From: Pristiophorus japonicus
Lineage: Eukaryota
DNA: 64,000 bases
Assembly: GCF_044704955.1 (NCBI RefSeq)
Contig: NC_092006.1
Span: 4,898,001 to 4,962,000, forward strand
Reading direction: 5' to 3'
In this document: piece after piece, positions 2,966 through 64,000 of the stretch
Position numbering within the stretch: position 1 is the first letter of the stretch
Layout of the letters: each line of letters opens with the position of its first letter
Position numbers and translations under genes: made by a program
Notes under the pieces: generated by a model
Told to the model about the DNA's origin: nothing
What the model saw: only the letters and a program-made list of their open reading frames with translations
Database searches by the model: none

Positions 2966-3193
2966 CTGCGAGTTAGGACACAGGGCGACAGAGTTTTGTT
3001 GGCCTCATGTTTAAGGAGGTAGAACGTGGGAGGCCAGGAGAGCATTGGAATACAAGTGTAAGGGCGAAGATGAAAGCTCCCAATCAGTACCCAGGTTAAA
3101 GAAATGGCCCCTTTGAGGGATGTGAATGGCTCCTCCTGGACTCTGCTCTCTGTTGATGCCCTTTGGTGTGAAGCTACCGCACAGCCGCTGCCT

Positions 3194-6100
3194 CTCCAGC
3201 AGGTGGCGCTGTAACATCCCCTCCTTCTCCAGCAGGTGGTGCTGTAACATCCCCTCCCTCTCCAGCAGGTGGCGCTGTAACATCCCCTCCCTCTCCAGCA
3301 GGTGGTGCTGTAACATCCCCATTCACTCCAAGAGTTGGCGCCGTAACAGTCCCATTCTCTCCAGCAGGTGGCACTGTAACATACACTCCCTCTCCAGCAG
3401 GTGGCGCCGTAACAGTCCCGTTCTCTTCAGCAGGTGGCACTGTAACATACACTCACTCTCCAGCAGGTGGCGCCGTAACAGTCCCATTCTCTCCAGCAGG
3501 TGGCACTGTAACATACACTCCCTCTCCAGCAGGTGGCGCCGTAACAGTCCCATTCTCTTCAGCAGGTGGCACTGTAACAGCCCCTCCCTCTCCAGCAGGT
3601 GGCGGTGTAACATCCCCTCCCACTCCAGCAGGTGGCGCTGTAACAGTCCCATTCTCTCCAGCAGGTGGCACTGTAACATACCCTCCCTATCCAGCAGGTG
3701 GCGCTGTAACAGTCCCATTCTCTCCAGCAGGAGGCGCTGTAACAGTCCCATTCTCTCCAGCAGGTGGTGTTGTAACATCCCCATTCTCTCCAGCAGGTGG
3801 CGCTATAACATACCCTCCGTCTCCAGCAGATGACGCTGTAGCATCCCCATTCTCTTCATCAGGCGGCGCTGTAACATACTCTCCCTCTCCAGCAGGTGGC
3901 GCTGTAACAGACCCTCCCACTCCAACAGGTGGCGCTGTAACAGACCCTCCCACTCCAACAGGTGGCGTTGTAACAGACCCTCCCTCTCCAACAGGTGGCG
4001 CTGTAACAGACCCTCCCACTCCAACAGGTGGCGCTGTAACAGACCCTCCCACTCCAACAGGTGGCGCTGTAGCAGACCCTCCCTCTCCAGCAGGCGGTGC
4101 TGTAACATCCCCATTCACTCCAACAGGTGGTGTTGTAATATACCTTCCCTCTCCAGCAGGAGACGCTGTAATATCCCCATTCTCTCCAGCAAGTGACGCT
4201 GTAACATCTCCTCGCTCTCCAGCAGGTGGCGCTGTAACCCCCATTCTCTCCATCAGGCGGTGCTGCAACATCCCCTGCCTCTCCAGTAGGTGGCGCTGTA
4301 ACCCCCATTCTCTCCATCAGGTGGTGCTGCAACATCCCCTCCCTCTCCAGCAGGTGGCGCTGTAACCCCCATTCTCTCCAGCAGGTGGCGCTGTATCAAG
4401 GATCAAGGGGTATGGCGAGAAAGCAGGAATGGGGTACTAAAGTTGCATGTTCAGCCATGAACTCATTGAATGGCGGTGCAGGCTCGAAGGGCCGAATGGC
4501 CTACACCTGCACCTATTTTCTATGTTTCTATGTATCATCCCCTCCCTTTCCAGCAGGCGGCGCTGTAACATCCCCCATTCTCTCCAGCAGGTGAAACATA
4601 GAAAATAGGTGCAGGAGTAGGCCATTCGGCCCTTCGAGCCTGCACCACCATTCAATAAGATCATGTCTGATCATTCACCTCAGTACCCCTTTCCTGCTTT
4701 CTCTCCATACCTCTTGATCCCTTTAGCTGTAAGGGCCACATCTAACTCCCTCCTGAATATATCCAATGAACTGGCATCAATAACTCTCTGCGGTAGGGAA
4801 TTCCACAGGTTAACAACTCTCTAAGTGAAGACGTTTCTCCTCATCTCAGTCCTAAATGGCTTACCCCTTATCCTCAGACTGTGACCCCTGGCTCTGGACT
4901 TCCCCAACATCGGGAACATTCTTCCTGCATCTAACCTGTCCAGTCCCGTCAGAATTTTATATGTTTCTATGAGATCCCCTCTCATCCTTCTGAACTCCAA
5001 TGAATAAAGGCCCAGTTGATTCAGTCTCTCCTCATATGTCAGTCCAGCCATCCCTGGAATCAGTCTGGTGAACCTTCGCTGCACTCTCTCAATAGTAAGA
5101 ACGTCCTTCCTCAGATTAGGAGACCAAAACTGAACACAATATTCCAGGTGAGGTCTTACCAAGGCCCTGTACAACTGCAGTAAGACCTCCCTGCTTCTAT
5201 ACTCAAATCCCCTAGCTATGAAGGCCAACATACCATTTGCCTTCTTCAGTGCCTGCTGTACCTGCATGCCAACTTTCAATGGCTGATGAACCACGACACC
5301 CAGGTCTCGTAGAGGATTTGAGAATAGGAGCAGGGAGGTCTTACTGCAGTTGTAGAGAGCCTTGGTGAGGCCACACCTGGAATATTGTGTTCAGTTTTGG
5401 TCTCCTAATCTGAGGAAGGATGTTCTTGCTATTGAGGGAGTTCAGCAAAGGTTCGCCAGACTGATTCCCGGGATGGCAGGATTGACATATGAGGAGAGAC
5501 TGGATCGACTGGGCCTGTATCCACTGGAGTTTAGAAGAATGAGAGGGGGATCTCATAGAAACATATAAAATTCTGACGGGACTGGACAGGTTAGATGCAG
5601 GAAGAATATTCCCGATGTTGGGGAAGTCCAGAAGCAGGGGTCACAGTCTAAGGATAAGGGGTAAGCCATTTAGGACCGAGATGAGGAGAAACTTCTTCAC
5701 TCAGAGAGTTGTAAACCTGTGGAATTCTCTACCACAGAAAGTTGTTGAGGCCAGTTCATTAGATATATTCAAAAGGGAGTTAGATGTGGCCCTTACGGTC
5801 AAAGGGATCAAGGGCAATGGAGAGAAAGCAAGAAAGGCGTACTGAGGTTGAATAATCAGCCATGATCTTATTGAATGGCGGTATAGGCTCGAAGGGCCGA
5901 ATGGCCTGCTCCTGCACCTAATTGCTATGTTTCTATGTAACATCCCCATGCTCTCCAGCAGGTGGCGCTGTAACACCCCCATTCTCTCCAGCAGGTGGCG
6001 CTGTAACATCCCCATCCCTCTCCAGCAGGTGGTGCGGTAACATCCCCATTGTCTCCAGCAGGTGGCGCTGTAACACCCCTCCTTCTCCACCAGGTGGTGC

Positions 6101-6280
6101 TGTAACATCACCTCCTCCAGCAGGTGGCACTGTAACATCCCCCCTTCTCCACCAGGTGGCGCTGTAACATCACCTCCTCCAACAGGTGGCACTGTAACAT
6201 CCCCTCCCTTCTCCACCAGGTAGCGCTGTAACATCAGCTCCTCCAGCAGGTGGCGCTGTAACATCCCCTCCCTCTCCAAC
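3194..6280 (+). repeat. 33-bp minisatellite (ctccagcaggtggcgctgtaacatcccctcc..) with a CTCF-consensus core per unit, interrupted by CR1 insertions
   Basis: 11-aa periodic ORFs (SSRWRCNIPSL). About 36 units at 3194-4392, about 2 at 4549-4593, about 10 at 5953-6280. Confidence 0.95.
4395..5937. mobile_element. Three CR1 3' fragments inserted in the minisatellite (+ 4395-4532; - 4595-5310; + 5310-5937)
   Basis: CR1 RT C-terminal ORFs 4821-5294(-), 5362-5568(+), 5615-5845(+); (ctatgttt) tails. Confidence 0.85.
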
Positions 6281-6968
6281 AGGACTCCTGTCGGAACCTC
6301 AGCACAGAAGGAGGCCATTCAGCCCGTGCCGGCTCTCTGTAAGAGCACTTCAGCTAGTCCCACTCCCCTGCCCTTTCCCGTTGCCCTGTAGATTGTTTTT
6401 TCCTTCAGGTACTTATCCAACTCACTTTTGAAAGCCATGATTGAGTCTGCCTCCAGCACCCTCTCAAGCAGCACATTCCAGATCCTAACCACTAGCTGCG
6501 GAAAAAGTTATTGCTCCTGTTACCTTTGGTTCTTCTGCCAATCGCCTTAAATCTGTGTCCTCTGGTTCTCAACCCGTCCGGCGATGTGAACAGTTTCTCC
6601 CTCTGTACTCTGTCTAGACCCCTCATGACTTTGAACGCCTGTATCAAATCTGCTCTCAACTTTCTCTAGTCTAAGAAGAACAACTGCCAACTGAGCTGGT
6701 GATAAACTTCTTGAGTGCTGTCGGAGCTGCAACTCATCCAGGCAAGTGACGAGTGTTCCATCACACTCCTGACTTGTGCCTTGTAGACGGCGGAAAGGCT
6801 TTGGGGAATCAGGAGGTGAGACACTCGCCGTAGAATACCCAGCCTCTGACCCGCTCTTGTTTACACAGTATTTATGTGACTGATCTGGTTGTATATTCGA
6901 TGTAATTCTGTGCAAACCATTTGCAATGTGGCTAGGCAGAGTCACTGCACGAGTTCCCAGCCCCTGTA

Positions 6969-13093: not shown

Positions 13094-14425
13094 TTACGTT
13101 TGGGTGTGTAAGTGCGTCTGTACCAAGGGCATAGCCTGAGGGGGGCATGGCCACCCCCAATCCAAAATAATAGTATTAAATTGTTCATGTGAAAAGCTTA
13201 AAATGTGATTGTTAATTTGGCTGAAAGAAATGAAAGACAAGTCTAACACATAGGCAGTAAAGAGTGTAGTTTTTATAATAAAATGTCAAAAACTATTTCA
13301 TTACATTTAACCACATTCTTATTTCTATTTTGTTATTTTTGTTTATTGATCTGCTGCATGATGTGTGGCCGGGACTGGTGGCATCTTTGACGCTTTGACC
13401 TGAAGCAGCGCCAATTGACGGCTCCTTCGATGTACGCGGCATCCAACTTGACCTGGCCGAGCCGCCCTATTTGTGAGAGTTGGCTTTTGGCATATTTTGA
13501 CCACAGTTCAAATCAACTCTCGCTTCGTTTCTGTCTGGACTCTCTGGCGTTTGGAAATTGGAAGACTCAGTTCGTGCCTGTCTGGAGTTTGGATCGTTCA
13601 GACGGATAAAGTTTGTCCTCCCCCCTCCCAATGGACAAATTCATCATCAGAAAACGTAAAAATGAGCGAGGAGATAACAATGACAGTGCCACTACAAGTT
13701 GGCCGACAACCATCGCCAGTACAAGCGGTGCCCAACCAAATCCTAAAAAACCCAAAATTCATCGTCAATATATGGAGGATTATTTGAGGTTTGGTTTTTC
13801 ATGGACAGGAGAAGAAGAATGCCCCGTTCCCCTGTGTGTTGTGAGCAGCGACTTTACATTGCAAGAAGAAGACGTATTGACTTCTATTTCTACAGACCGA
13901 GGTCTTAAAATGAAACATTCAGATTTGTCTCCTGATGCGTTCTGGATTTCTATTAAAGAAGAATATCCTATAGTATCAAAAAAAGCCTTGATAATTCTGA
14001 TGCAGTTTTCAGCATCATGTCTCTGCGAATTAGGATTCTCAACTCTTACGAACATCAAATGCAAAAAACAGGAAAAACTTGGAAAACTTGAACATGAAAT
14101 GAGAGTCGCCTTATCGGTTATACGCCCTAATATTAGTGACATAACTATAAAACATCAGGCTCAAGTATCACATTAAAATACTAATTAATCTAGAATTAAT
14201 GTGAGGAATTATTATTGTAGTTTATTATTTTATTGTTACTTTCAGAATAAAAAATAATTAGTAACATACATGTGTACAATGTTCATATGCTGTGATTAAT
14301 AAAATGTTTTTTAAATTTTCTGAAACTTGCTTTTTTAAAAAAACCTTTTAACCCCTTCAAGTGTGCCGCCAAAAATTCTAGTATTCGAAAGTGTGCCGCG
14401 AACACAGAAAGGCTGAGCGCCACTG
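12620..14425 (+). mobile_element. Internally deleted hAT (Charlie/Buster-type) DNA transposon
   Basis: Termini CAGTGGTTCTC... and ...GAGCGCCACTG; 8-bp TSD CATTATCT (12612-12619) / CGTTATCT (14426-14433) with central TA. Confidence 0.85.
13631..14176 (+). CDS. Truncated hAT transposase ORF: N-terminal BED-finger start fused in frame to C-terminal dimerisation domain (181 aa)
   Basis: RQYMEDYLRFGF...PLCVV joined to FWISIKEEYP..SKKAL..F...LCELGFS..KQAQVSH-like C-terminus, as in ZBED5/Buster-type transposases. Confidence 0.65.
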   Translation: MDKFIIRKRKNERGDNNDSATTSWPTTIASTSGAQPNPKKPKIHRQYMEDYLRFGFSWTGEEECPVPLCVVSSDFTLQEEDVLTSISTDRGLKMKHSDLSPDAFWISIKEEYPIVSKKALIILMQFSASCLCELGFSTLTNIKCKKQEKLGKLEHEMRVALSVIRPNISDITIKHQAQVSH

Positions 14426-24310: not shown

Positions 24311-24975
24311 GAAAGAAAGAAAGACTTGCATTTACATAGCGCCTTTCACGATCAATGGACATCTCAAAGCGCTTCACAGCTAATGAAGTACTTTTGGAGC
24401 GCGGTCACTGTTGTAATGTGGGAAACGCAGCGGCCAATTTGCGCACAGCAAGCTCCCACACACAGCAATGTGATAATGACCCAGGTCATCTGTTTTAGTG
24501 ATGTTGGTTGAGGGATAAATATTGGCCCCAGGACACCGGGGATTAATCCCCCTGCTCTTCTTCCAATACTGGCCGTGGGATCTTTTACATCCACCTGACA
24601 GAATAGACGGAGCCTCGGTTTAATGTCTCATCCGAAAGAGGGCACCTCCGACAGTGCGGCGCTCCCTCAGTACTGCCCCTCTGACAGTGCGGCGCTCCCT
24701 CAGTACCGCCCCTCCGACAGTGCGGCGCTCCCTCAGTACCGCCCCTCCGACAGTGCGGCGCTCCCTCAGTACTGCCCCTCCAACAGTGCGGCGCTCCCTC
24801 AGTACCGCCCCTCCGACAGTGCGGCGCTCCCTCAGTACTGCCCCTCCGACAGTGTGGCACTCCCTCTGCACTGCACTGGAGTGTCAGCCTGGATTTACAT
24901 GCTCAAGTATCTGGAGTGGGACTCGAACCCACAACCTTCTGACTCAGAGGCGAGCGTGCTGCCCACTGAGCCACA
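24311..24975 (-). mobile_element. Full-length Deu-domain tRNA-SINE (SacSINE1/AmnSINE1-like)
   Basis: A box TGGCTCAGTGG, B box GGTTCGAGTCC, internal 33-bp tandem, Deu core (gctgtgcgcaaattggc..gtttcccacattacaacagtgac), tail gcaagtctttctttc. Confidence 0.85.
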
Positions 24976-28177: not shown

Positions 28178-31100
28178 GTGAGTGACCCGTGCTTGGGACC
28201 AGCCGAAAACGGGAAACAAGGGGACTGTGGTTGCGGAGTTGAAAATGTGACCCAGCTTTTGCCCCGATATTTTCGCCCCCTCTCCCTATCTCCGTAACCT
28301 CCTTCAGCCCTGCAACCCTCCCTATCTCTGTAACCTCCTTCAGCCCTGCAACCCTCCCTATCACTGTAACCCCCTCCAGCCCCTCCAACCCTCCCTATCT
28401 CTGTAACGCCCTCCAGCCCCTACACCTCTCCCTATCTCTGTAACCCCCTCCAGCCCCTACACCCCTCCCTATCTTTGTAACCCCCACCAGCCCCTACAAC
28501 CCTCCCTATCTCTGTCACCTCCTCTAGCACCTACACCCCTCCCTATCTCTGTAACCCCCTCCAACCCCTGCAACCCTCCCTATCTCTGTAACTCCCTCCA
28601 GCCCCTGCAACCCTCCCTATCTCTGTAACCTCCTCCAGCCCTCCAAACCCCCCGAGATCTCTGCGCTCCCCAATTCTCTTGAACAACCCCAATTGTAATG
28701 ACTCAACCATCAGTGGATGTACCTTCAGCTGCCTGGGCCCCAAGCTCTGAAACTCCCTCCCTAAACCTCTCCGCCTCTCTCTCCTCCTTTAAGACGCTCC
28801 TTAAAACCGACTTCTTTGTCCCAGCTTTTGATCATTACCTAATATCTCATTTTGTGACTCGATGTCACATTTCCGTGAAGCGTCTTGGGACATTCAATTA
28901 CGTTGAAGGCGCTTTATAAAAGAGATATTTTGTTGTTGATAATGTTGGTTTACTTTCAGGTCCTTCTACAAGGCTAAGCAAAGGCAAAGTAGAGAATGGG
29001 TCCAATCTGCCATAACTAAAGGCAATAATGCCGCTGGTCTTAAGTTACAGGCGATGGGTTTGAAAGCGGCCTCTCTCCATCTCTCAAAAATCAACATGAA
29101 GAAATTGTATTTATATAGCGCCTTTAATGTAGTGTCCTGGAGCCAATATTTATCCCTCAACCAACATCGCTAAAACAGATGATTTGGGTCATTATCACAT
29201 TGCTGTGTGTGGGAGCTTGCTGTGCGCAAATTGGCTTCCGCGTTTCCCACATTACAACAGTGAGCACACTCCAAAAAAAGGGCTTAATTGGCCGTAAAGC
29301 GTTTTGAGACGGCCGGTGGTCGTGAAAGGCGCTATATAAATCCAAGTCTTTCTTTCTTTTTAGTAAAACGCTTCACAGGAGAATTATTTTTAAAAATTTG
29401 ACCCCGAGCCACATGAGGAGATATTAGGGACAGGTGACCAAAAGCTGGGTCAAAGAGATCGGTTTGAAGGAGCGTCTTAAAGAAGGAGAGCGAGGCGGAG
29501 AGGTTTAGGGAGGGAGTTCCAGAGCTTGGGGCCCAGGCAGCTGAAGGCACGGCCACCGATGGTGGAGCGATGGAAATCGGGGGATGGGCAAGAGGGCAGA
29601 ATTGGAGGAGTGCAGAGATCTCGGAGGGTCGTGGGGGCTGAAGAAGGTTACAGAGTTAGGGAGGGGTGTATGGGTTAGAGGAGGTTAAGAGATAGGGAGG
29701 AGTGTAGGGGCTGGAGAGGGTTACAGAGATCGGGAGGGGTGTAGGGGCTGGAGGGGGGTTACAGAGATAGGGAGGGAAATAGTGGCTGGAGGGGGTTACA
29801 GAGATAGGGAACGGTTTAGGGGCTGGTGGAGGTTACAGAGATAGGGAGGGGTGTAGGAGCTGGAGGAGGTTACAGAGATAGGGAGGGGTGTAGGGGCTGG
29901 AGGAGGTTACAGAGATTGGGAGGGAAATAGTGGCTGGAGGGGGTTACAGAGATAGGGAACGGTTTAGGGGCTGGTGGAGGTTACAGAGATAGGGAGGGGT
30001 GTAGGAGCTGGAGGAGGTTACAGAGATAGGGAGGGGTGTAGGGGCTGAAGGAGGTTACAGAGATTGGGAGGGGTGTAGGGGCTGGAGGAGGTTACAGAGA
30101 TTGGGAGGGGTGTAGGGGCTGGAGTGATTTACAGAGATAGGAAGGGGTGGAGGGGCTGGAAGGGATTACAGAGATAGGGAGCGGTTTAGGGGCTGGAGGG
30201 GGTTACAGAGATAGGGAGGGGTGTATGGGTTAGAGGAGGTTAAGAGATTGGGAGGGGTGTAGGGGCTGGAGGAGGTTACAGAGATTGGGAGGGGTGTAGG
30301 GGCTGGAGGAGGTTACAGAGATAGGGAGGGGTGTAGGGGCTGGAGGGGGTTACATAGATAGGAAGGGGTGTAGGGGCTGGAGGGGATTACAGAAATAGGG
30401 AGTGGATTAGGGGCTGGAGGAGGTTACAGAGATAGGGAGGGGTGTAGGGGCTGGAGGAGATTACAGAGATAGGGAGGGGTGTAGGGGCAGGAGGTTACAG
30501 AGATAGGGAAGGTGTGTAGGGGCTGGAGGAGGTTACAGAGATAGGAAGGTGTGTAGGGGCTGGAGGGGATTACAGAAATAGGGAGGGGTTTAGGGGCTGG
30601 AGGGGGTTACAGAGATAGGGAGGGGTGTAGGAGCTGGAAGAGATTACTGAGATAGGGAGGGGTGTAGGGGCTGGAGGTTACAGAGATAGGAAGGGGTGTA
30701 GGGGCTGGAGGAGGTTACAGAGATAGGGAGGGGTGTAGGGGCTGGACGAGGTGACAGAGATAGGGAGGGGTGTAGAACTGGAGGAGGTGACAGAGCTCGG
30801 GAGGGGGCGCGGCCATGGGGGGGATTTAAACACAAGGATGTGAATTTTGAAATTGGGGCGTTGTTTAACCAGGAGCCAGTGTGGGTCAGCGAGCACAGGG
30901 GCGATGGGTGAGCGGGACTGGCTGCGAGTTGGGACACAGGTCGGGGCTGCAGAAGTGTGGGATGAACTGGCGTTGAAGGCGCGGGGGTTGGAGTGGACAA
31001 ACCATCTCTAATGGGACCCCCCCCCCTCTGTCCAGTCGCAGGATCTGAACCCTTCACTGTGACGGCGGCAGCCGGGGAGACGGTGGAACTGGAATGCCAC

Positions 31101-34100
31101 CTGGATTACGAAGTGGAATTCGTGGACAGCTACTTCTGGTACAAGCAACTCGTGGGGGAAGCGCCCAAGTTGGTGCATATACCAGCCTGCCGTGGAACCA
31201 TCTGCAAGTTTACTTCGAAGAGAGGGCGCAACAAATATATCCTGGTCCTGCAAATCCTGAAAGTGAACACTTCTGACGCCGGGTCCTACTACTGTGCTGA
31301 TAGGGATGGCTATGCTTCCCTTAGGAACAGTTCCTTGCTGCTGGTTGGAGGTAAGAACAAAGCCCGATTGAATTCATCCCATGCACATGCGATTAAAATT
31401 GCATTAGCCAGAATTTAACTGTTTCTTCCATCTCCATCCCCACCCAGACAGTTCTACGCCTAAGACCGATGTGCTGGTGTTTGTGACTCCAGGGGAGCCA
31501 CCTGTGAGGGAAACCATCCCCTTGGTGTGTCTGGTGACCGGCGTGTCCTCCAGGCAAATTGCCATTTACTGGAACGTGTCGGGACAGTTCGTCGCGGGAC
31601 GGAGCGAGGTCGGCACCCTGGACCCCGACGGGACCTACAGCATCAGAAGCCACGTGATGGTCGGGGCGGAGATCTGGAGCAACAGAGGGGTCTGCACTTG
31701 TATCGTCGAGCTGGGGTCGCCGGGCAAGTCTTGGACCAAGAGCGTGTCCCGTCCTGAAGCGGCGACAGGTGAGTCATAGCAACATCGAAACATAGAAAAT
31801 AGGGGCAGGAGCAGGCCATTCGGCCCTTCGAGCCTGCACCACCATTCAATATGATCATGGCTGATCATGCAACTTCAGTACCCCATTCCTGCTTTCTCTC
31901 CATACCCCTTGATCCCTTTATCCGTAAGGGCCACATCTAACTCCCTTTTGAATATATCCAACGAACTGGCCTCAACAACTTTCTGTGGTAGAGAATTCCA
32001 CAGGTTCACAATTCTCTGAGTGAAGAAGTTCCTCCTCATCTCGGTCCTAAATGGCTTACCCCTTATCCTTAGACTGTGACGGGGAGCTCGGTTGCGAAAG
32101 TGTAACATCGGTTGGACTGGTTCTCTCGCCCCTATTAAGCAACTCCGCGGGTCAAACACAGAGAGATATCTATCAGGAGAAACAGTGCAGCCAGCCTATT
32201 GGGAAATACCTTGAAATAAGCCCACCCGTCACAGGTCTTGTAAATAATTTCTCTGCTCTCGACTGCCCTTCGATTTCTGCCTGTCACCTTCGAATTATAG
32301 ACTTACACAGCACAGAATCAGGGGTCACCCATTTAAGACAGAGATGAGGAGGAATTTCTGCTCTCAGAAGGTTGTAAATCTGTGGAATTCACTGCCTCGG
32401 AGAGTTGTGGAAGAACATAATAACATAAGAAATAGGAGCAGGAGTCGGCCATTCGGTCCCTCGAGCCTGCTCCGCCATTTAATACGATCATGGCTGATCC
32501 GATCATGGACTCAGGTCCACTTCCCTGCCCGCCCACTTAATCCCTTATCGATTAAGAAACTGTCTATCTCCGTCTTAAATATATTCAATGTCCCGGCTCT
32601 CTGAGGCAGCGAATTCCACAGATTTACAACCCTCTGAGAGAAGAAATTTCTCCTCATCTCAGTTTTAAATGGATGGCCCCTTATTCTAAGATTATGCCCC
32701 CTAGTTCTAGTCTCCCCCATCAGTGGGGATCATTGAATAAATTTAAGACAGAGAGAGACAGTTTCTTAGCCGATAAGGGACTAAGGGGGCGGGCAGGGAA
32801 GTGGAGCTGAGTCCATGATCGGATCAGCCATGATCTTATTGAATGGTGGAGCAGGCTCGAGGGGCCGAATGGCCGACTCCTGCTCCTATTTCTTATGTTC
32901 TCATGTATATTCTATATCGGGAGAAACAATGCAGTCTGTCTGTTAAAAAATATGTTGAAATAAGCTATGGTCACCCTCCAAACCAGGCCTTTTAAATATT
33001 TTCTCTGCTCTTGACTGCCCTTCGATTTCGGCGTGTCATCTTAGAATTATCGAATACAGCACAGGAGTCGGCCATTCGGCCCCTCGAGCCTGCTCCATCA
33101 TTCAATAAGATCACGGCTGATCTTCGACCTCAACTCCACAATCCTGCACTGTCCCCACTTGGTTCCCCTCGAGTCCAAAAATCTATTGCTCCCTGTCTCA
33201 ACGACTGAGCCTCCACAGCCCTCTGGGGCAGAGAATTCCAAAGATTCACCACCCTCTGAGTGAAGAAATTCCTCCTCATCTCAGTCCTAAATGGCCGAGC
33301 CCTTATCCTGAGACTGTGTGCCCCCTGGTTCTAGACTCCCCAGCCCGGGGGGAAACACCCTCCCTGCATCTACCCTGTCGAGCCCTGTCAGAATGTTGTA
33401 TGTTTCAATGAGATCACCTCTCATTCTTCCAAGCTAGGAGTTTACAACATAGAAACATAGAAATTTACAGCGCAGAAGGAGGCCATTTCAGCCCATCGTA
33501 TCCACACCGGCCGACAAAGAGCCACACGGCCCTCGGTCAGCAGCCCTGAAGGTTACATATAAACCTACGAACGATGAACAATGACGGAAAGGCAAAGAGC
33601 ACCCAGCCCAACCAGTCCGCCCCACACAACTGCGACACCCCTTACACCGAAACATTCTACACTCCACCCCAACCATTGTCCAATTAGCCCCATTCCCCCA
33701 ACCTTTTCCCCACAGTCCTGCAAAGTGTCACTCTCCAAGTATTTATCAAATTCCCTTTTGAAAGTTATTAATTAATCTGCTTCTACTGCCCGGCAGCGCG
33801 TCTTGGAATAATTTTAAGATTAAAATCTATTTTAATTTTAATTTTGACTTGTGGATATCTGCAAATCAGACATATTACCCTCGGGTTGTGACGCTTCAGC
33901 GAAATCGGGTTATCGTTCCAGTTTAAGGATAAGGGGTAAGCCATTTAGGACCAAGATGAGGAGAAACTTCTTCACCCAGAGAGTGGTGAACCTGTGGAAT
34001 TCTCTACCACAGGAAGTTGTTGAGGCCAGTTCGTTGGATATATTCAAAAGGGCGTTAGATGTGGCCCTTACGGCTAAAGGGATCAAGGGTTATGCAGAGA

Positions 34101-48551: not shown

Positions 48552-50347
48552 ATTTGGACGGACGGATAGATGGTAAACAGACAGATAGTTTACAGATAAT
48601 ACAACACTTGGTAAAGCAGTGGATCAGGATGAGGATAATTATAGGCTGCAGGAGAGCACAGACGGGTTGGTGAAATGGCCGTCAGCACGGCCGGTGGGGT
48701 TCAAAGCGGGGAAGTGTTAAGTGTTTCAGTTTGGGAGGGGTAACATGGACAGACAATGTACTGTGAATGGCATCGAGCGAGGACGTGATCCACCGGAAAT
48801 GGCAGTATATTATTCTCCAATTTGACCCATGGATCGCCCAGGAATATACCTGCTCTCCCAGCAGGTAGATATGACCTAGCAGGACAGAAGGACCTTATAA
48901 TTGAGAAAGCTAAACATTGAGAGATCTGGGAGAGGTAAATCATTGAGATACTTACACACGAATTTGCAGAAAGGAAGAGAATTTGAATGTATAACGTGAC
49001 AGGGCTAACAATGATCTCTTACATCACCATTGAAGATATTAGTGAAGGAGAATAGTTACCGCTCAGCGATGAGATGCTTTCACTGATGAAATTGCCGGTG
49101 GAATTGACCGGAACGGCGCAAGTGCAGACAGCGCCACTCCGCCAAGTTTCCGCCGAGACGCTGAGGTGACTCCCGACCGTGAGCGTCCCGTCCGGCTCGG
49201 TGGTCCCGGAGTCGCTCCGTCCCTCGGCGAGCCGTCCCGAAACAGTCCAGCGGACGGGAAGGGAATCGGGAGTCAGGCCTCTGACCAGACACAGCAGCGG
49301 GACCCTCGCCAGCGAGGGAATTTCGTCCTGCGGCAGAGTTAAGAGCTGTATTTCCGGAGACCCTGCCGAATTTGGGGAGGATTAATATTCGACGGAAATC
49401 GGCCGTTATTTATGACGAAATTCGTAAACGAATTCTTACCTGTAATGAGCAATTTCGAGCCGTTTCCGAATATAAGGTGCAATGGACTAGATTTCTGAGC
49501 TGTGCAGTAATACACCCCTGAATCGTTCCCCTGGACCTCGTTCACAATCAGAGAGTAAATATTGAATTTGTCGTCAATTTGTCCGGAAAATCTCCCTTCA
49601 GGAAGATTGTAGTCGCTCACGGTGTAAACTTTCTGCAGAGGTCCTCGGTTCTGCTGCTTATACCACTGCACAGCTCAAGTCAGCAACTGACCAGCGTGAC
49701 AATCCGCCTTGTAGGTACTGCCAACCGAGAGAGTCTGGACCGACGGACTCTGGGCGAAATAGTCCTGGGAGGCAATAACTGAGAGAAGAACATGGTCACC
49801 ACGGGGTCTGTTACAACAGGAATAAACACCGCTTCAGATCAAGAAACCCACACAGCAGTGAACGGTGAGAGAGGCGCTCGTGTTCAAGGAGCCTCATTTC
49901 TAATTGAGTTCAATGCTGAGGGTTAACATTGAGCCAATAACAGGAGGACAGAAGGAAGGAAGAGAAAAAAAGAAAGAGAAAGAGAAAGAAATAGAGAGAG
50001 AGAAGGAAAGAAAGAGAGAGAGCGAGAGAAAGAGATAGAGAGAGAAAAGAAANNNNNNNNNNNNNNNNNNNNNNNNNNNNNNNNNNNNNNNNNNNNNNNN
50101 NNNNNNNNNNNNNNNNNNNNNNNNNNNNNNNNNNNNNNNNNNNNNNNNNNNNNNNNNNNNNNNNNNNNNNNNNNNNNNNNNNNNNNNNNNNNNNNNNNNN
50201 NNNNNNNNNNNNNNNNNNNNNNNNNNNNNNNNNNNNNNNNNNNNNNNNNNNNNNNNNNNNNNNNNNNNNNNNNNNNNNNNNNNNNNGAGAAACAGATAGA
50301 GAAAAAGAAAGAAAGAGAGAGAGAAAGAAAGATAAAGAGATAGAGAG

Positions 50348-57200: not shown

Positions 57201-60200
57201 CATCAGGAGCAGGTGAAGCGCCGCCAACAAATTCAGGACCAACCGCAATCTGCAGGCGCTCTGTGACGGAGACACTGTAAGAAAAGAGCTTTTTTAAAGA
57301 AAAAGGACGTTTCTGCAAAGAGTTAAACAAGTGCAGCCACCGAGCAAATCTGCTTGTGGAATTTCACACAAAACATTTTGCATAGTTCCCCAGCGAGCAG
57401 ATATCTGAGAGGCCCCTGCTTACCGATAACTTTGCAATTAACAAGGACTGCGATGTTGCGATAGACAGGCAGACACGGGCAGACACCTGAGAGATAGACA
57501 GATAAGAACACAAGAAATAGGAGCAGGAGTCGGCCATTTGGCTCCACAGCTGGTCTGGTCTCGGGCTCAGCTCTACTTCCCTGTCTGATAGATAGACAGA
57601 CAGACATAGAGATAGAGATAGAGAGAGAGTTAGAGAGTTAGAGAGAGAGAGGGAGATAGAGAGAGAGAGAGAGAGAGAGAGGGAGATAGATAGATAGAGA
57701 GTTAGAGAGAGAGAGATAGATAGATAGAGAGTTAGAGATAGAGAGTTAGAGATAGAGAGTTAGAGATAGAGATAGAGAGTTAGAGATAGAGATAGAGAGT
57801 TAGAGATAGAGAGTTAGAGATAGAGAGTTAGAGATAGAGAGTTAGAGAGATAGATAGATAGAGTTAGAGATAGAGAGTTAGAGATAGAGAGTTAGAGATA
57901 GAGAGTTAGAGAGATAGATCGATTGGATAGGCTGGGTTGTTTTCTTTGGAACAGAGGAGACTGAGGGGCGACCTAATTGAGGTGTATAAAATTATGAGGG
58001 GCCTGGATAGAGTGGATAGGACAGACCTGTTTCCCTTGGCAGAGGGGTCAACAACCAGGGGTCACAGATTGAAAGTAATTGGGAGGAGGTTTAGAGGGGA
58101 TTTGAGGGGAAATGTCTTCACCCAGAGGGTGGCGGAGGTCTGGGGTGGAACTCACTGCCTGAAAGGGTGGTAGAGGCAGAAACCCTCACCACATTTAAAA
58201 AGCACCTGGATGTGCGCTTGAAGTTCCGTAACCTACAGGGCTACGGACTGAGAGGTGGAAAGTGGGATTAGGCTGGGTGGCTCTTTGTCGGCCGGCGCAG
58301 ACATGATGAGCCGAATTACCTCCTTCCATGCTGTAAATTTCTATGATTCTAGGATAGACATCGCGATAGAACACAGCACAGTGGAAATGTAATCACATTT
58401 TCGACTTTTAAGCAGGGAGGTACCTTACTCCGAACATTTATTCCCTAGCTAGACAGATAGACTTCAAAATTCAGCAAGGTAGACACTGAAACATTGAGAG
58501 ATATGTGATAGGGAGATCGTGGTATAATTATACACGCAGACGCAGAAAAGGACGTAAGAATATAAGAACATAAGAAATAGGAGCAGGAGTCGGCCATTCG
58601 GCCCCTCGAGCCTACTCCGCCATTCAATACGATCCTGGCTGATCCGATCATGGACTCAGCTCCACTTCCCCGCCCACTCCCCATAACCCTTCACTTCCTT
58701 ATCGCTCAAAAATCTGTCTATCTCCACCTTATATATATTCAAGTTCCCAGCCTCCACAGCTCTCTGGAGCCGAGAATTCCACAGATTTACAACCCTCTGA
58801 GAGAAGAAATTCCTCCTCATCTCAGTTTTAAATGGGCGGCCCCTTATTCTGAGACTATGCCCCCTAGTTCTAGTCTCCCCCATCAGTGGAAACATCCTCT
58901 CTGCATCCACCTTGTCGAGCCCCCTCATTATCTTATACGTTTCGATAAGATCACCTCTCATTCTTCTGAACTCCAATGAGTAGAGACCCAACCTGCTCAA
59001 CCTTACCTAAGAAGTCAACCCCCTCATCTCCGAAATCAACCAAGTGAACCTTCTCTGAACTGCCTCCAGTGCAAGTATATCCTTCCTTAAATACGGAGAC
59101 CAAAACTGCACGCAGTACTCCAGGTGTGGCCTCACCAATACCCTCTCCAGTTGTAGCAGGACTTCTCTGCTTTTATACTCTATCCCCCTTGCAATAAAGG
59201 CCAAGATTCCATTCCAGTTGAGGTCTAAGATTGGCCGTGATCTTATTGAATGGCAGAGCAGGCTCGAGGGGCCAAATGGCCTCCTCCTGCTCCTAATTCG
59301 TATATTCTAAAATAGAGGTTAGACTGAACAGTAACCGACATATCGTAGAGGGTTGTTGAGGCCAGTCTGTTAGATATATTAAAGAGGAAGCTAGATATGG
59401 CCCTTACAGCTAAAGGGATCAAGGGGTATGGAGAGAAAGCAGGAATGGGGTACTGAGGTGAATGATCAGCCATGATCATATTGAATGGTGGTGCAGGCTC
59501 GAAGGGCCGAATGGCCTACTCCTGCACATATTTTCTATGTTTCTATGTAAGGACAGTGGCTAAATACAGCGCTATGTATTCTGAATTCCCTGTCATTCTT
59601 CTGAACTCCAGGCCTTCAATATACAAAAAGTTGCGAAGAAGTGAGACTCACATCACCATTGAAGATATTAGTGAAGGGGACACCGGCCACAGTTACCTCC
59701 CGGAGATGCGACGCTTTCACTCAGGAGATCCCCGGTGGCGTTGATCGGAACGGTGCAAGTGCAGACGGCGCCGCTGCGCCAGGTTTCGGCCGAGACGCTC
59801 AGGACGCTTCTGGCGGTATAGCTCCCGTCCGGCTCCAGCTTGCCGGGCTCGCTCCGTCCCTCGGCGGCCCATCCCGCAACCAGCCAGCGGATGGGGAAGG
59901 AGTCCGGAGCAGCGCCCCGCACCAGACACATCAAGGGCACTCTCTCCAGCCGGGGAATCTCAGCCGGCGGTGGCGTTAAGAGGAAGAGGACCGGGGGGCC
60001 CGCTAGATGGAAGAGAAATTGGAATTAACCAGGCGCACAAGGTAGGTTTGAATTGGTGTCTCGACGCACAATTGGATGGACGAGTGGGATTACCTGTGAT
60101 CACCAGCGTGGTGCCAGTCCCGAATATCAGGGACCGATTCCTGGCGTTTGGAGCAGCGCAGTAATACCGCCCAGAATCGCTCCTCTGGACGTTGTCAATG

Positions 60201-60432
60201 ACCAGCGAATAATTCCCCGATTGCTCGCATACCTCGCCGGAAAATCTTCCCCCGGGCCTCACGAACCGTCCGGTTTTGTAAACGATCCGCATGCCCTCTC
60301 GGTGCCAGTGTGTGTACCAGTAAACGATGCCCGGGGCCAGCCTCCCGGTCTGGCATTGAAGTTTGACCAGGCTCCCGACATCGGCCGTTAGCAGCGCCGG
60401 AAATTGGCTCAAGACCGCCTGAGACACGACAG
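54274..60432 (-). CDS. IgSF gene C: germline-joined VJ-C1-TM receptor with TLYAQL tail (model complement join 60432-60094,60002-59697,57274-57168,54537-54274; leader exon not located)
   Basis: V VKLQC..VYWY..RFSG..YSLVIDNVQRSDSGRYYC..LIFGTGTTLVIT (339 nt, same length as gene B V); C1 PLMCLVRG..PDSFPIRW..EPDGSYTARSVLSVSAETWRSGAVCTC; TM SACRLRLVLNLLAALHLLLMVSVAAV; phase-0 terminal exon TLYAQLAF. Confidence 0.8.
55540..57040 (-). mobile_element. Nested repeats: SINE (about 55540-55740 + 56855-57040) interrupted by CR1 (55741-56855), itself interrupted by an RTE-tailed SINE-like insert (about 56335-56792, +)
   Basis: CR1 resumes ccctgta|caactgcagtaagacc across an insert ending cgagggactgcctataatgatgat. 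Confidence 0.65.
57590..57920. repeat. (GAGATAGAGAGTTA)n / GA microsatellite
   Basis: Direct inspection. Confidence 0.9.
57920..59548. mobile_element. CR1 fragments in gene C intron (+57920-58350; -58555-59220; +59350-59548)
   Basis: ORFs 57937-58173, 58656-59000, 59007-59204. Confidence 0.85.
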
Positions 60433-61536
60433 CTGAGACAAGGTTGCGGGGGGGGGGGGGACACAAAAATAAAAAAAAACACAATATTAACAACAGGTTA
60501 TAGGCCCCCGAGTCACCCTGGATACCGACACATCTCAAATTCCCCACCACTGGCGCGTCGGGAGCGCGTGTGGGACATTCCGCCGCGCTGCGCACCGTTA
60601 AATTGCGCCTCTCCGCCCGCAATTCCCACAGGCGCACAGTCCGAGTCCGTTCGCTGTGAAATCCGCTCCAATCATTGGCGGGCACCATGGCGACTGGCTG
60701 CAGTTAAGATTGCAAAATCCTTCTCCCAAACCGATTATGCTTCCCCCTGGTCTAACCCGGCTCTCCAATCCATCTCTCCAGGGGTTGGGGACCGGGGGGC
60801 GCTTGATTGTGTTAAAATGGGGCGATAGCTTTCTCACTAATTCCACTAGACAGGCCCCCCTCTCCCAACGGTAGACCCTCGCCTTCAAATACCGGAGTTC
60901 ACTGACAACTTTATCTCAGTTAGGGGGCAGTTCAGTGTCACATTCGCTTCCACTCACCCATCACAATGTTCGGCTCCAAAGTCGCGCTATCGGTATTGAG
61001 CGAAGCCCGCACACCTTTATACTTTGCCCAATATCTAATCTGCTTCTTAAAAAAATTATAGTTAAACGCAAACTTGTGTATCAGCGAACGATGCAACACA
61101 GGAGGCCATTCGGCCCATCAAACCTGTGTTGTGCCGGCTCTGTGACAGAGCGACTCAATCATTCCCACTCCGCCCCTGCTCTTTCCCCACAGCCCGGCAT
61201 ATTGCCTCCTTTCCAAATATTTATCCAATTCCCCCGTTTGAAAGTCACTTTTTCATCTGCTCCCAGTGCCCCTTTCAGGCAGCGCGTTCCCGAGCACAAG
61301 CTCTCAGGGCTTGAAATCACGTCCTGATCTCCCCCTCTGGTTCTGTTACCGATTATATTAAACATGTGTCCTCTGCTTACCCACCCTCCTCCCACTGGAA
61401 ACAATCTCTCCTTCTTTACTCGATCGGAAGCCTTCTCCTTATTAATTCTATACAAAACCCTTCTCCTTATTAATTCTCTCCAAAACCCTTCTCCTTATTA
61501 ATTCTCTCCAAAACCCGTCTAAAATCCAAAATCCAA

Positions 61537-62615
61537 AAGAGTAGGAGTAAACGGGTACTTTTCAGAATGGCAGGCAGTGACTAGTGGAGTGCCGCAAGGT
61601 TCTGTGCTGGGGCCCCAGCTGTTTACATTGTACATTAATGATTTAGACGAGGGGATTAAATGCAGTATCTCCAAATTTGCGGATGATACTAAGTTGGGTG
61701 GCAGTGTGAGCTGCGAGGAGGATGCTATTAGGCTGCAGAGTGACTTGGATAGGTTAGGTGAGTGGGCAAATGCATGGCAGATGAAGTATAATGTGGATAA
61801 ATGTGAGGTTATCCACTTTGGTGGTAAAAACAGAGAGACAGACTATTATCTGAATGGTGACAGATTAGGAAAAGGGAAGGTGCAACGAGACCTGGGTGTC
61901 ATGGTACATCAGTCATTGAAGGTTGGCATGCAGGTACAGCAGGCGGTTAAGAAAGCAAATGGCATGTTGGCCTTCATAGCGAGGGGATTTGAATACAGGG
62001 GCAGGGAGGTGTTGCTACAGTTGTACAGGGCCTTGGTGAGGCCACACCTGGAGTGTTGTGTACAGTTTTGGTCTCCTAACTTGAGGAAGGACATTCTTGC
62101 TATTGAGGGAGTGCAGCGAAGGTTCACCAGACTGATTCCCGGGATGGCGGGACTGACCTATCAAGAAAGATTGGATCAACTGGGCTTGTATTCACTGGAG
62201 TTCAGAAGAATGAGAGGGGACCTCATAGAAACGTTTAAAATTCTGACGGGTTTAGACAGGTTAGATGCAGAAAGAATGTTCCCAATGTTGGGGGAGTCCA
62301 GAACCAGGGGTCACAGTCTGAGGATAAGGGGTAAGCCATTTAGGACCGAGATGAGGAGAAACTTCTTCACCCAGAGAGTGGTGAACCTGTGGAATTCTCT
62401 ACCACAGAAAGTAGTTGAGGCCAATTCACTAAATATATTCAAAAGGGAGTTAGATGAAGTCCTTACTACTCGGGGGATCAAGGGTTATGGCGAGAAAGCA
62501 GGAAGGGGGTACTGAAGTTTCATGTTCAGCCATGAACTCATTGAATGGCGGTGCAGGCTAGAAGGGCTGAATGGCCTGCTCCTGCACCTATTTTCTATGT
62601 TTCTATGTTTCTATG
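61537..62615 (+). mobile_element. CR1 3' fragment, RT domain (312-aa open frame), inserted in the 28-bp satellite
   Basis: SGVPQGSVLGP..FADDTKL; (ctatgttt)n tail. Confidence 0.95.
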
Positions 62616-64000
62616 TCTCCTTATTAATTCTCTCCAAAACCCTTCTCCTTATTAATTCGCTCCAAAACCCTTCTCCTTATTAATTCGCTCCAAAACCCTT
62701 CTCCTTATTAATTCTCTACAAAATCCTTCCCCTTATTAATTCGCTCCAAAACCCTTCTCCTTATTAATTCTAACCAAAACCCTTCTCCTTATTAATTCTC
62801 TCCAAAACCCTTCTCCTTTTTAATTCGCTCCAAAACCCTTCTCCTTATTAATTCGCTCCAAAACCCTTCTCCTTATTAATTCTCTCCAAAACCCTTTTCC
62901 TTATTAATTCGCTCCAAAACCCTTCTCCTTATTAATTCTAACCAAAACCCTTCTCCTTATTAATTCGCTCCAAAACCCTTCTCCTTATTAATTCTAACCA
63001 AAACCCTTCTCCTTATTAATTATCTCCAAAATCGTTCTCCTTATTAATTCGCTCCAAAACCCTTCTCCTTATTAATTCTAACCAAAACCCTTCTCCTTAT
63101 TAATTCTCTCCAAAACCCTTCTCCTTATTAATTCTATCCAAAACCCTTCTCATTATTAATTCACTCCAAAACCCTTCTCCTTATTAATTCTCTCCAAAAT
63201 CCTTCTCATTATTAATTCTCTCCAAAACCCTTCTCATTATTAATTCTCTCCAAAACCCTTCTCCTTATTAATTCTATCCAAAATCCTCCTCCTTATTAAT
63301 TCTCTCCAAAACCCTCCTCCTTATTAATTCTCTCCAAAACCCTTCTCCTTATTAATTCTATCCAAAACCCTTCTCCTTATTAATTCTATCCAAAACCCTC
63401 CTCCTTATTAATTCTCTCCAAAACCCTTCTCCTTATTAATTCTCTCCAAGACCCTTCTCCTTATTAATTCTCTCCAAGACCCTTCTCCTTATTAATTCTC
63501 TCCAAAACCCTTCTCCTTATTAATTCTCTCCAAAACCCTTCTCCTTATTAATTCTATCCAAAACCCTTCTCCTTATTAATTCTCTCCAAAACCCTTCTCC
63601 TTATTAATTCTCTCCAAAACCCTTCTCATTATTAATTCTCTCCAAAACCCTTCTCCTTATTAATTCTCTCCAAAACCCTTCTCCTTATTAATTCGATCCA
63701 AAACCCTCCTCCTTATTAATTCTCTCCAAAACCCTTCTCCTTATTAATTCTCTCCAAGACCCTTCTCCTTATTAATTCTCTCCAAGACCCTTCTCCTTAT
63801 TAATTCTCTCCAAAACCCTTCTCCTCATTAATTCTCTCCAAAACCCTTCTCCTTATTAATTCTATCCAAAACCCTTGTCCTTATTAATTCTCTCCAAAAT
63901 CCTCCTCCTTATTAATTCTCTCCAAAACCCTTCTCATTATTAATTCTCTCCAAAACCCTTCTCCTTATTAATTCTCTCCAAAACCCTTATCCTTATTAAT
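62616..64000. repeat. 28-bp satellite (ccttctccttattaattctctccaaaac)n; 3 more units at 61430-61515
   Basis: About 49 units running to the window end. Confidence 0.95.

What the first reader, a model, noticed from the sequence alone, without database searches (positions are those of the whole stretch)
3194..6280. Tandem array of ~48 co-oriented CTCF-consensus motifs at the edge of the Ig-like gene cluster
Seen: almost every 33-bp unit contains CCAGCAGGTGGCGC(T) or a close variant (CCACCAGGTGGCGC, CCAACAGGTGGCGC), all on the + strand. Known: this matches the vertebrate CTCF core (CCASYAGRKGGCRS); forward motifs act as left loop anchors, so these point into the cluster. Clustered CTCF sites form strong anchors at the mouse Igh 3' end and at DXZ4/Firre. 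Inference: a minisatellite-built super-anchor or insulator bounding the locus. Each unit also holds a CAGGTG E-box (E2A/ZEB type).
Basis: partly seen in the sequence, partly recalled or inferred. Interest (0 to 1): 0.7.

Follow-up and report, generated by a model that had tools for sequence, protein, structure and literature searches.

The report
CTCF-motif repeat heading shark receptor units
A 33-base DNA repeat carrying about 49 same-direction matches to the docking motif of the genome-folding protein CTCF sits at the start of a 106-kb block of shark immune-receptor genes that is repeated twelve times in this assembly, so it likely acts as a one-way chromatin barrier of a kind known from mice, although binding is untested and such repeats are common in this genome.

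Summary
The motifs are real: 49 units (16 exact CCAGCAGGTGGCGC, all + strand; 31 score p<=1e-6 on a recalled CTCF matrix). They fill only 1,614 of 3,093 bases, in three blocks split by LINE fragments. This copy is not at the cluster edge. It is the third of 12 copies, one about every 106 kb, heading a tandem unit of four non-rearranging VJ-C1 receptor genes (4 of 12 units mapped). Only copy 1 lies at the left edge, next to PEX11- and dermatopontin-family genes. An unrelated 41-bp array of weaker, reverse motifs lies about 45 kb beyond the right end, making a convergent layout. Unrelated CTCF-motif minisatellites are common in this genome and show no excess over single motifs (80-fold enriched). 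Evidence that selection keeps the motif is weak (p about 0.08), and its CpG has decayed in 16 of 49 units. Best reading: one CTCF site amplified by slippage, then copied passively with the gene block; likely bound and acting as a one-way barrier (0.5), or a neutral repeat (0.38). The closest known case is mouse DXPas34. The scan already reported two sister copies of this array and similar arrays in other genomes.

The parts
3191..4395 (+). Array block 1: 37 units, mostly 33 bp (some 31 bp), each with a CTCF-like core
   Evidence: TRF period 33, 36.7 copies; unit list
4396..4533 (+). Short LINE 3'-end fragment inserted in the array (CR1-type by recalled likeness, ends in TTTCTATG repeats); shared by the paralogous copies examined
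   Evidence: sequence; contig depth in millions versus tens over the array; same 172-bp step in 7 of 7 copies examined
4534..4594 (+). Array block 2: 2 units, the second cut by the next insertion
4595..5935 (.). About 1.34 kb of LINE 3' fragments, minus then plus strand (CR1-type, recalled)
   Evidence: ORFs 4821-5390(-) and 5543-5845(+); depth
5936..6283 (+). Array block 3: 10 units of 30-34 bp with CTCF-like cores
30966..31779 (+). Gene 1 of the unit: V exon and C1 exon of a non-rearranging VJ-C1 gene (ORF limits)
   Evidence: Pfam V-set E=9e-10, C1-set E=3e-8
49067..49788 (-). Gene 2: VJ exon (FGNGSKLLIT) and C1 exon. The V exon has an in-frame TGA in this unit; units 1, 2 and 12 are open there
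59671..60445 (-). Gene 3: VJ exon (FGTGTTLVIT) and C1 exon. Its leader exon lies just beyond the window (about 64,640-64,710); gene 4 (+) is at window-equivalent 71.7-79.3 kb
   Evidence: P0001, 92% identical to the V exon

Best explanation
The array is a 33-bp minisatellite of a strong CTCF motif, present once at the left end of a 106-kb tandem unit of four VJ-C1 receptor genes, and it likely binds CTCF and would act as a one-way barrier to loop extrusion facing the genes of its own unit. Steps. (1, shown) Units are head-to-tail copies of one 33-mer with a forward core; LINE fragments split the array, and the insertions are shared between copies, so the array is older than the block duplications. 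(2, shown for 4 of 12 units, inferred for the rest) The duplication breakpoint lies about 2.7 kb left of the array, so each copy of the block carried the array along; copy 1 keeps the original place between the PEX11/dermatopontin-family genes and the receptor genes. (3, inferred from mammalian and skate data) Forward CTCF sites stop cohesin that arrives from their 3' side and stacked strong sites insulate more, so copy 1 would shield the left neighbours and copies 2-12 would cut the 1.3-Mb cluster into one-sided subdomains. A reverse 41-bp CTCF-like array about 45 kb beyond the right end would close the domain. (4, inferred) Only a few of the 49 sites need be occupied, and the large number mostly reflects slippage rather than need.
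For: Motif strength: 31 sites at p<=1e-6 against none elsewhere in the window (matrix recalled). The same IUPAC motif is 80-fold enriched genome-wide over its reversed control (43,714 vs 543), as expected if it is the site that CTCF reads in this animal. The array has a fixed position and orientation: 12 of 12 copies on +; the same four-gene order follows it in 4 of 4 units mapped. The only cluster of 3 or more co-oriented motifs in 600 kb of flank is the reverse array at C32:6,049,773-6,050,428 (8 of 17 units p<=1e-5; reversed-matrix control gives 0 clusters). The array's only core CpG is at C12 and none of 49 units has one at C2; C2 is the dominant methyl-sensitive position (PMC10325916 passages). 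There are hints of constraint: the four highest-information columns show 3 of 12 possible variant alleles against 49 of 81 elsewhere (p=0.02, post hoc), and 0 of 74 distinct units have a core deletion against 15 with a spacer deletion. Precedents: DXPas34, dosage of tandem sites in a model, CTCF orientation code in skate.
Against: No binding, chromatin-contact or expression data were available. Counted as independent events, the core mutates as often as the spacer (3.64 vs 3.21 changes per column, p=0.44). Non-CpG core changes are only slightly milder than chance (p about 0.08). Six arrays combined give p=0.046, but they were picked for having the motif. The raw contrast of 7.7% vs 17.2% is inflated by related units, and the flank TGTAACA is as conserved as the core. 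The core CpG has become TG or CA in 16 of 49 units and CpG o/e is 0.37 against 0.54 for the window, which points to germline methylation. Two LINE insertions were tolerated. Unit number varies from 23 to 48 among six fully read copies. At least 10 other loci with motif pairs 30-34 bp apart and 18 more with pairs 15-29 bp apart exist (first 100 rows), no more than neutral duplication of a common motif would give. Convergence of two flanking arrays has a 1 in 4 chance, the reverse array is weak, and it abuts another gene's promoter beyond a PAQR-family gene.
Confidence: 0.5

Rival explanations
1. Neutral minisatellite: a chance tandem amplification of a sequence that happened to hold one of about 44,000 genomic CTCF motifs. 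It is methylated and mostly unbound, or bound without consequence, and rides along with the duplicated block.
For: No excess of CTCF arrays over single motifs. The core is no less mutated per event than the spacer. CpG decay, LINE insertions, a twofold range of unit number, and a window full of other minisatellites (65 TRF rows).
Against: Weak sparing of the top-information columns (p=0.02 post hoc; rho=-0.67, p=0.02 between information content and changes in 12 non-CpG columns). The placement is at the junction between unrelated genes and the receptor cluster, with a convergent array at the far end. C12 methylation is the less inhibitory kind.
Confidence: 0.38
2. Single locus-bounding super-anchor like the mouse Igh 3'CBEs, evolved to bound the cluster.
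For: Copy 1 does sit at the left edge, about 3.4 kb after the last mapped dermatopontin-like exon, and points into the cluster.
Against: The window's copy and 10 others are internal. The genes have joined VJ exons and the window has no RSS match, so no recombination needs focusing. The Igh element is 10 separate sites tested by deletion (PMC7826415 passages).
Confidence: 0.06
3. The array works as an E-box (E2A/ZEB) enhancer or silencer rather than through CTCF.
For: CAGGTG is in 38 of 49 units, and the neighbours are immune-type genes.
Against: CAGGTG is contained in this variant of the CTCF core. The T of CAGGTG is one of the more often changed core columns (7 events). The nearest mapped receptor exon is about 25 kb away.
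Confidence: 0.04
4. The array is a coding exon for a mucin-like Ser/Thr/Pro stalk (SPAGGAVTSPP repeats).
For: One + frame is open for 397 codons, 3172-4365, and the same frame reads alike at the start of 5 of 5 copies checked.
Against: The frame has no methionine and shifts at the 31-bp units. LINE fragments interrupt the array. The receptor proteins have no such stalk in 9 of 9 aligned relatives. A 33-bp unit without a stop gives a long frame by itself.
Confidence: 0.02

Closest known systems
Mouse DXPas34 minisatellite at Tsix (PMC3149622, passages read)
   Same: A minisatellite of 30-34-bp monomers in several blocks, each monomer holding a CTCF site, lineage-specific.
   Different: DXPas34 is described as CpG-rich, lies at a promoter and is single-copy. 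This array is CpG-depleted, far from any mapped promoter, and repeated once per 106-kb gene block; binding is not shown.
Mouse Igh 3'CBE super-anchor (PMC7826415, passages read)
   Same: Many CTCF motifs next to Ig-domain genes; copy 1 lies at a locus edge.
   Different: Igh has 10 sites with an insulator role shown by deletion in a recombining locus. Here there are 23-48 minisatellite units, 11 of 12 copies are internal, and the genes do not rearrange.
Tandem CTCF arrays of Pcdh and Igh V clusters (PMC7087399, abstract and outline read)
   Same: A long gene cluster studded with periodic, co-oriented CTCF sites facing reverse sites at one end.
   Different: In those clusters single sites sit at each promoter or V segment (recalled). 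Here one large array stands per four genes, about 25 kb from the nearest mapped exon.
2xCTS clustered CTCF sites (PMC4562119, passages read)
   Same: Closely spaced co-oriented motifs that can be doubly occupied.
   Different: The paper's example pairs are 20-bp motifs with a 30-40-bp linker, mostly at active promoters and enhancers. The linker here is about 13 bp by that count, so full occupancy of adjacent units is not assured.
PRARP-type non-rearranging VJ-C1 genes (named in passages of PMC10751288 and PMC11599192; primary papers not held, features recalled)
   Same: For the neighbouring genes: single-exon VJ, C1, transmembrane segment and a conserved tyrosine motif in the tail; relatives in sharks, rays, sturgeon, caecilian and turtles.
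   Different: About 48 gene copies in 12 blocks in this assembly; orthology to chicken PRARP was not tested.

Membership tests
CTCF-site minisatellite (DXPas34 type) | Head-to-tail monomers of about 30-35 bp | tested here: met
   period 30-34, 49 units
CTCF-site minisatellite (DXPas34 type) | CTCF core motif in most monomers | tested here: met
   47 + strand hits at p<=1e-4 and 31 at p<=1e-6 with a recalled matrix; core consensus as given in PMC12885311
CTCF-site minisatellite (DXPas34 type) | CTCF occupancy in cells | not testable with these tools
   no ChIP or ATAC run among the 7 runs listed
CTCF-site minisatellite (DXPas34 type) | Motif kept while the rest of the monomer diverges | tested here: inconclusive
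   events per column p=0.44; non-CpG effect p about 0.08; top-information columns p=0.02 post hoc; no other shark genome could be searched
Super-anchor (Igh 3'CBE type) | Located at the edge of the locus | tested here: not met
   the window's copy is third of 12; met only by copy 1
Super-anchor (Igh 3'CBE type) | Co-oriented sites facing the locus, with convergent partners | tested here: met
   all +; reverse array at C32:6,049.8-6,050.4 kb; one strong reverse site about 51-58 kb into 3 of 4 mapped units, absent from the window's unit
Super-anchor (Igh 3'CBE type) | Insulation or stripe in Hi-C and an effect of deletion | not testable with these tools
   no contact data
Two-part (core plus upstream) CTCF site | Upstream CTGCAGTTCC-like motif 2-7 bp before the TGG-core | tested here: inconclusive
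   by eye, CTGTAACATC matches 5 of 10 with a 7-bp linker in 33-bp units and 6 of 10 with a 5-bp linker in 31-bp units (consensus); it overlaps the end of the previous core; no matrix was available
Non-rearranging VJ-C1 receptor genes (PRARP-like) | V and J in one exon without RSS, then C1, TM and a tyrosine motif | tested here: met
   0 RSS matches in the window; gene 1's J motif is degenerate
Non-rearranging VJ-C1 receptor genes (PRARP-like) | Orthology to chicken PRARP by tree and synteny | not tested
   primary papers not held; flanking PEX11, dermatopontin and PAQR families fit human 1q21-24 from recall only

The most novel reading that the evidence does not exclude
A duplicated immune-receptor cluster carries its own insulator in every repeat. 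Twelve minisatellite-built CTCF barriers partition about 48 non-rearranging antigen-receptor-like genes into four-gene cassettes inside a domain closed by a convergent array, so that cassettes are chosen or expressed independently (protocadherin- or KIR-like variegation). Array length (23-48 sites) would tune each cassette.
Probability: 0.1. Interest if true: 0.7.

Novelty: new member of a known kind. Interest (0 to 1): 0.3.

Why it matters
CTCF-site minisatellites are known from mouse (DXPas34), and this genome has dozens, so the array alone is ordinary. What is less ordinary is the layout: one array per gene block across 1.3 Mb, with a reverse array at the far end. If the copies are bound, the locus is a natural dose series (23-48 sites) for how tandem CTCF sites insulate. 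It would also show how segmental duplication can turn one border element into periodic internal borders in an old family of antigen-receptor-like genes. I found no paper on CTCF minisatellites in sharks or on this cluster's regulation in searches; the library lacks most subscription journals.

Tried and rejected
Sequencing runs: no RNA holder listed; 4 DNA holders from one study and one sample. This says nothing about expression. Runs X5 and X6 cover almost none of the array, which is not proof of absence. Copy number from reads: no result, so whether 12 or only 7 blocks are real is open. Raw column variation (core 7.7% vs other 17.2%, Fisher p=2e-8): rejected as evidence of selection because units are related; replaced by event counts. 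The first matrix-effect test (p=0.007) fell to p about 0.08 once CpG columns were removed. The idea that the period equals the full CTCF footprint was rejected: periods of 20, 23, 26-28, 35, 41 and 43 also occur. Excess of CTCF arrays over the reversed control (182 vs 0; 108 vs 2) was rejected as evidence because single motifs are 80-fold enriched. Descent from the common 33-bp shark repeat at 24645-24874: borderline, 51 of 1000 shuffles score as high, not accepted. Common origin with five other CTCF arrays: spacers unrelated, p 0.35-0.66. A C1-set search (150 of 970 candidates scored) listed no match close to the other arrays and was not decisive. A zinc-finger family search for the ctcf gene was uninformative; the gene was not located. 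The last small exon of the dermatopontin-like gene was not found by pattern, so copy 1 could lie in its last intron. Look-ups for look-alike stretches in other genomes returned nothing. The UrIg2 paper describes a different gene. Three papers were not held. No supplements were read; they may hold synteny tables for these genes.

Full report
Observation. The stretch holds 49 units with a CTCF-like core, all on the + strand: 16 exact CCAGCAGGTGGCGC, 44 within two mismatches, and 23 matching CCASYAGRKGGCRS. With the JASPAR MA0139.1 counts recalled from memory (column sums 908-913 as a check), 31 sites score p<=1e-6, none of the 19 weaker hits elsewhere in the window does, and 0 of 20,000 unit shuffles reach the unit's score. 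The array is not continuous. Blocks at 3191-4395, about 4534-4594 and 5936-6283 make up 1,614 of 3,093 bases. The gaps are LINE 3' fragments (CR1-type by recalled likeness), whose contig depth is in the millions against tens to about 140 over the array in two DNA runs of one sample. So the array is present in reads and is low-copy. CAGGTG occurs in 38 of 49 units.

Where it sits. The window is G000:C32:4,898,001-4,962,000, in a 5.9-Gb genome that is shark-like by its genes. The array recurs 12 times on C32 from 4,688,597 to 5,914,440, 105-121 kb apart and always on +. I read units 1, 2, 3 and 12 in full. Each has the array, then four genes in the order +, -, -, +; neighbouring units are 95-99% identical. 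The other eight units are inferred from the spacing. Five copies repeat at an offset of exactly 559,609 bp with 0 mismatches in 8 of 8 locus pairs of 3.4-3.6 kb, so the true number may be 7, or the duplication is very recent; this is unresolved. The window's copy is third, hence internal. Copy 1 lies about 2.7 kb inside the left breakpoint and about 3.4 kb after the last mapped exon of a dermatopontin-family gene, with PEX11- and Ras-family genes further left. To the right of unit 12 lie PAQR/HlyIII and 7TM genes. No related Ig exon was found in 600 kb of flank.

The genes. They have a single exon with V and a J motif (FGTGTTLVIT, FGNGSKLLIT), a short intron, a C1 exon, then transmembrane and tail exons ending in a tyrosine motif. 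No RSS matched in the window. Relatives of 260-410 aa occur in sharks, rays, sturgeon, caecilian and turtles, and the tail tyrosine is invariant in 9 of 9 aligned proteins. This fits PRARP-type non-rearranging VJ-C1 genes, named in passages of PMC10751288 and PMC11599192; the primary papers were not held and orthology is untested. Gene 2 has an in-frame stop in the window's unit but not in units 1, 2 and 12. With no rearrangement, the Igh role of focusing recombination (PMC7826415 passages) cannot apply.

How common. Exact motif pairs 30-34 bp apart number 182 against 0 for the reversed control; the first 100 rows hold 10 loci outside C32, including an array spread over more than 50 kb on C20. 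Pairs 15-29 bp apart number 108 against 2, with 18 further loci in the first 100 rows. Pairs 35-59 bp apart number 1,186 against 41, dominated by a dispersed element with two motifs 59 bp apart. Single motifs number 43,714 against 543. With an 80-fold excess of singles, the excess of arrays needs no selection. Spacers of five other arrays are unrelated to this one, so these arrays arose independently.

Selection. Raw variation is lower in the core (7.7% vs 17.2%), but units are related. Counting events on a spanning tree of 63 distinct units gives 3.64 changes per core column and 3.21 per spacer column (p=0.44). Inside the core, changes fall on low-information columns (rho=-0.67, p=0.02, 12 non-CpG columns). 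The mean matrix cost of non-CpG changes is milder than chance at p about 0.08 (74 distinct units from 7 copies). The top four columns show 3 of 12 possible alleles against 49 of 81 elsewhere (p=0.02, chosen after seeing the data). Five other arrays give p=0.05-0.40, and all six combine to 0.046 with ascertainment bias. This is a hint, not a demonstration. The core CpG is TG or CA in 16 of 49 units and CpG o/e is 0.37, consistent with germline methylation. It is the C12 position, and passages of PMC10325916 name C2 as the dominant inhibitory site, so methylation need not block binding.

The far end. At C32:6,049,773-6,050,446 an unrelated 41-bp minisatellite (16.7 copies) carries weaker CTCF-like motifs on the - strand: 8 of 17 at p<=1e-5, 2 at p<=1e-6, CpG o/e 0.80. 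It directly abuts a first exon that is probably EIF3J (Pfam E=0.056 only). It is the only cluster of three or more co-oriented motifs in 600 kb of flank, and the reversed-matrix control has none. It converges with the 12 forward arrays, as at skate TAD borders (PMC10115646 passages). Convergence alone has a 1 in 4 chance, a PAQR-family gene lies in between, and the array may simply serve that promoter.

Mechanism. Shown: tandem amplification of a motif-bearing unit, LINE insertions before the block duplications, and carriage of the array with the block. Inferred: CTCF binds some units (ZF3-7 need 12-15 bp; a full ZF3-11 complex was solved on 35 bp, PMC10484683 passages, so full 11-finger occupancy of adjacent 33-bp units would be tight). 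The N-terminal side faces 3' of CCACCAG (PMC12885311 passages), hence toward the unit's own genes. Stacked strong sites are predicted to insulate more, but tandem non-boundary sites may not insulate at all (PMC11828424 passages). I give 0.5 to a bound one-way barrier, 0.38 to a neutral repeat, and little to a single super-anchor, an E-box element or a coding exon.

Comparison and novelty. The closest known element is mouse DXPas34, with 30-34-bp monomers each holding a CTCF site (PMC3149622 passages; lead taken from earlier scan notes). By sequence this array is a new member of that kind. It fails the 'edge of locus' test for an Igh-type super-anchor, although copy 1 passes. DXZ4 was seen only as a search listing. 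The scan had already reported the sister copies at about 5,123 and 5,683 kb and at least 22 similar notes in 11 genomes. What I did not see in their displayed text is the edge position of copy 1 and the convergent reverse array. Interest 0.3.

Noticed in passing
G000:C32:6,049,773-6,050,446 (L074:9773-L075:446): Unrelated 41-bp minisatellite of reverse CTCF-like motifs abutting a CpG-rich first exon, probably EIF3J; converges with the 12 forward arrays.
   Followed up: partly
G000:C20:69,250,600-69,306,800 (L083-L087): Very large 27-31-bp CTCF-motif satellite with about 200 sites at p<=1e-5 per 10 kb in its first 20 kb, then a 2.9-kb higher-order repeat; flanking genes not identified.
   Followed up: partly
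G000 genome-wide: A dispersed element with two CTCF motifs 59 bp apart, probably hundreds to about 1,000 exact copies; a likely transposon source of CTCF sites in sharks.
   Followed up: no
G000:C32:4,795,517-5,355,126 versus 5,355,126-5,914,440: Five units are repeated at an offset of exactly 559,609 bp with 0 mismatches in 8 of 8 sampled pairs: a very recent duplication or an assembly duplication.
   Followed up: partly
G000:C32:4,740,385; 4,846,839; 5,972,386: A single strong reverse CTCF motif (score 20-23) about 4 kb upstream of gene 2's V exon in units 1, 2 and 12. It lies in a stretch of about 0.8 kb that the window's unit lacks, and gene 2 there also has a stop codon.
   Followed up: partly
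window 60,600-64,000 and beyond: Genes 3 and 4 are a head-to-head inverted pair (about 92-94% identical V exons) with a 28-bp satellite between leader and V exon of each.
   Followed up: no
G000:C8:170,312,365-170,316,740; C28:14,539,400-14,541,000; C34:10,623,700-10,626,800: Other GGTGGCGCTG-type minisatellites (32-33, 35 and 28-31 bp); C8 has 96 and C28 35 motifs at p<=1e-5, while the C34 arrays gave none.
   Followed up: partly
G000:C1:272.6-273.2 Mb: 23-bp CTCF-motif repeat recurring every few kb over about 0.5 Mb, suggesting another tandem gene or segment cluster with one array per unit.
   Followed up: no
window 13610-14176: Open frame with a weak hAT transposase dimerisation match (E=3e-4).
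   Followed up: no
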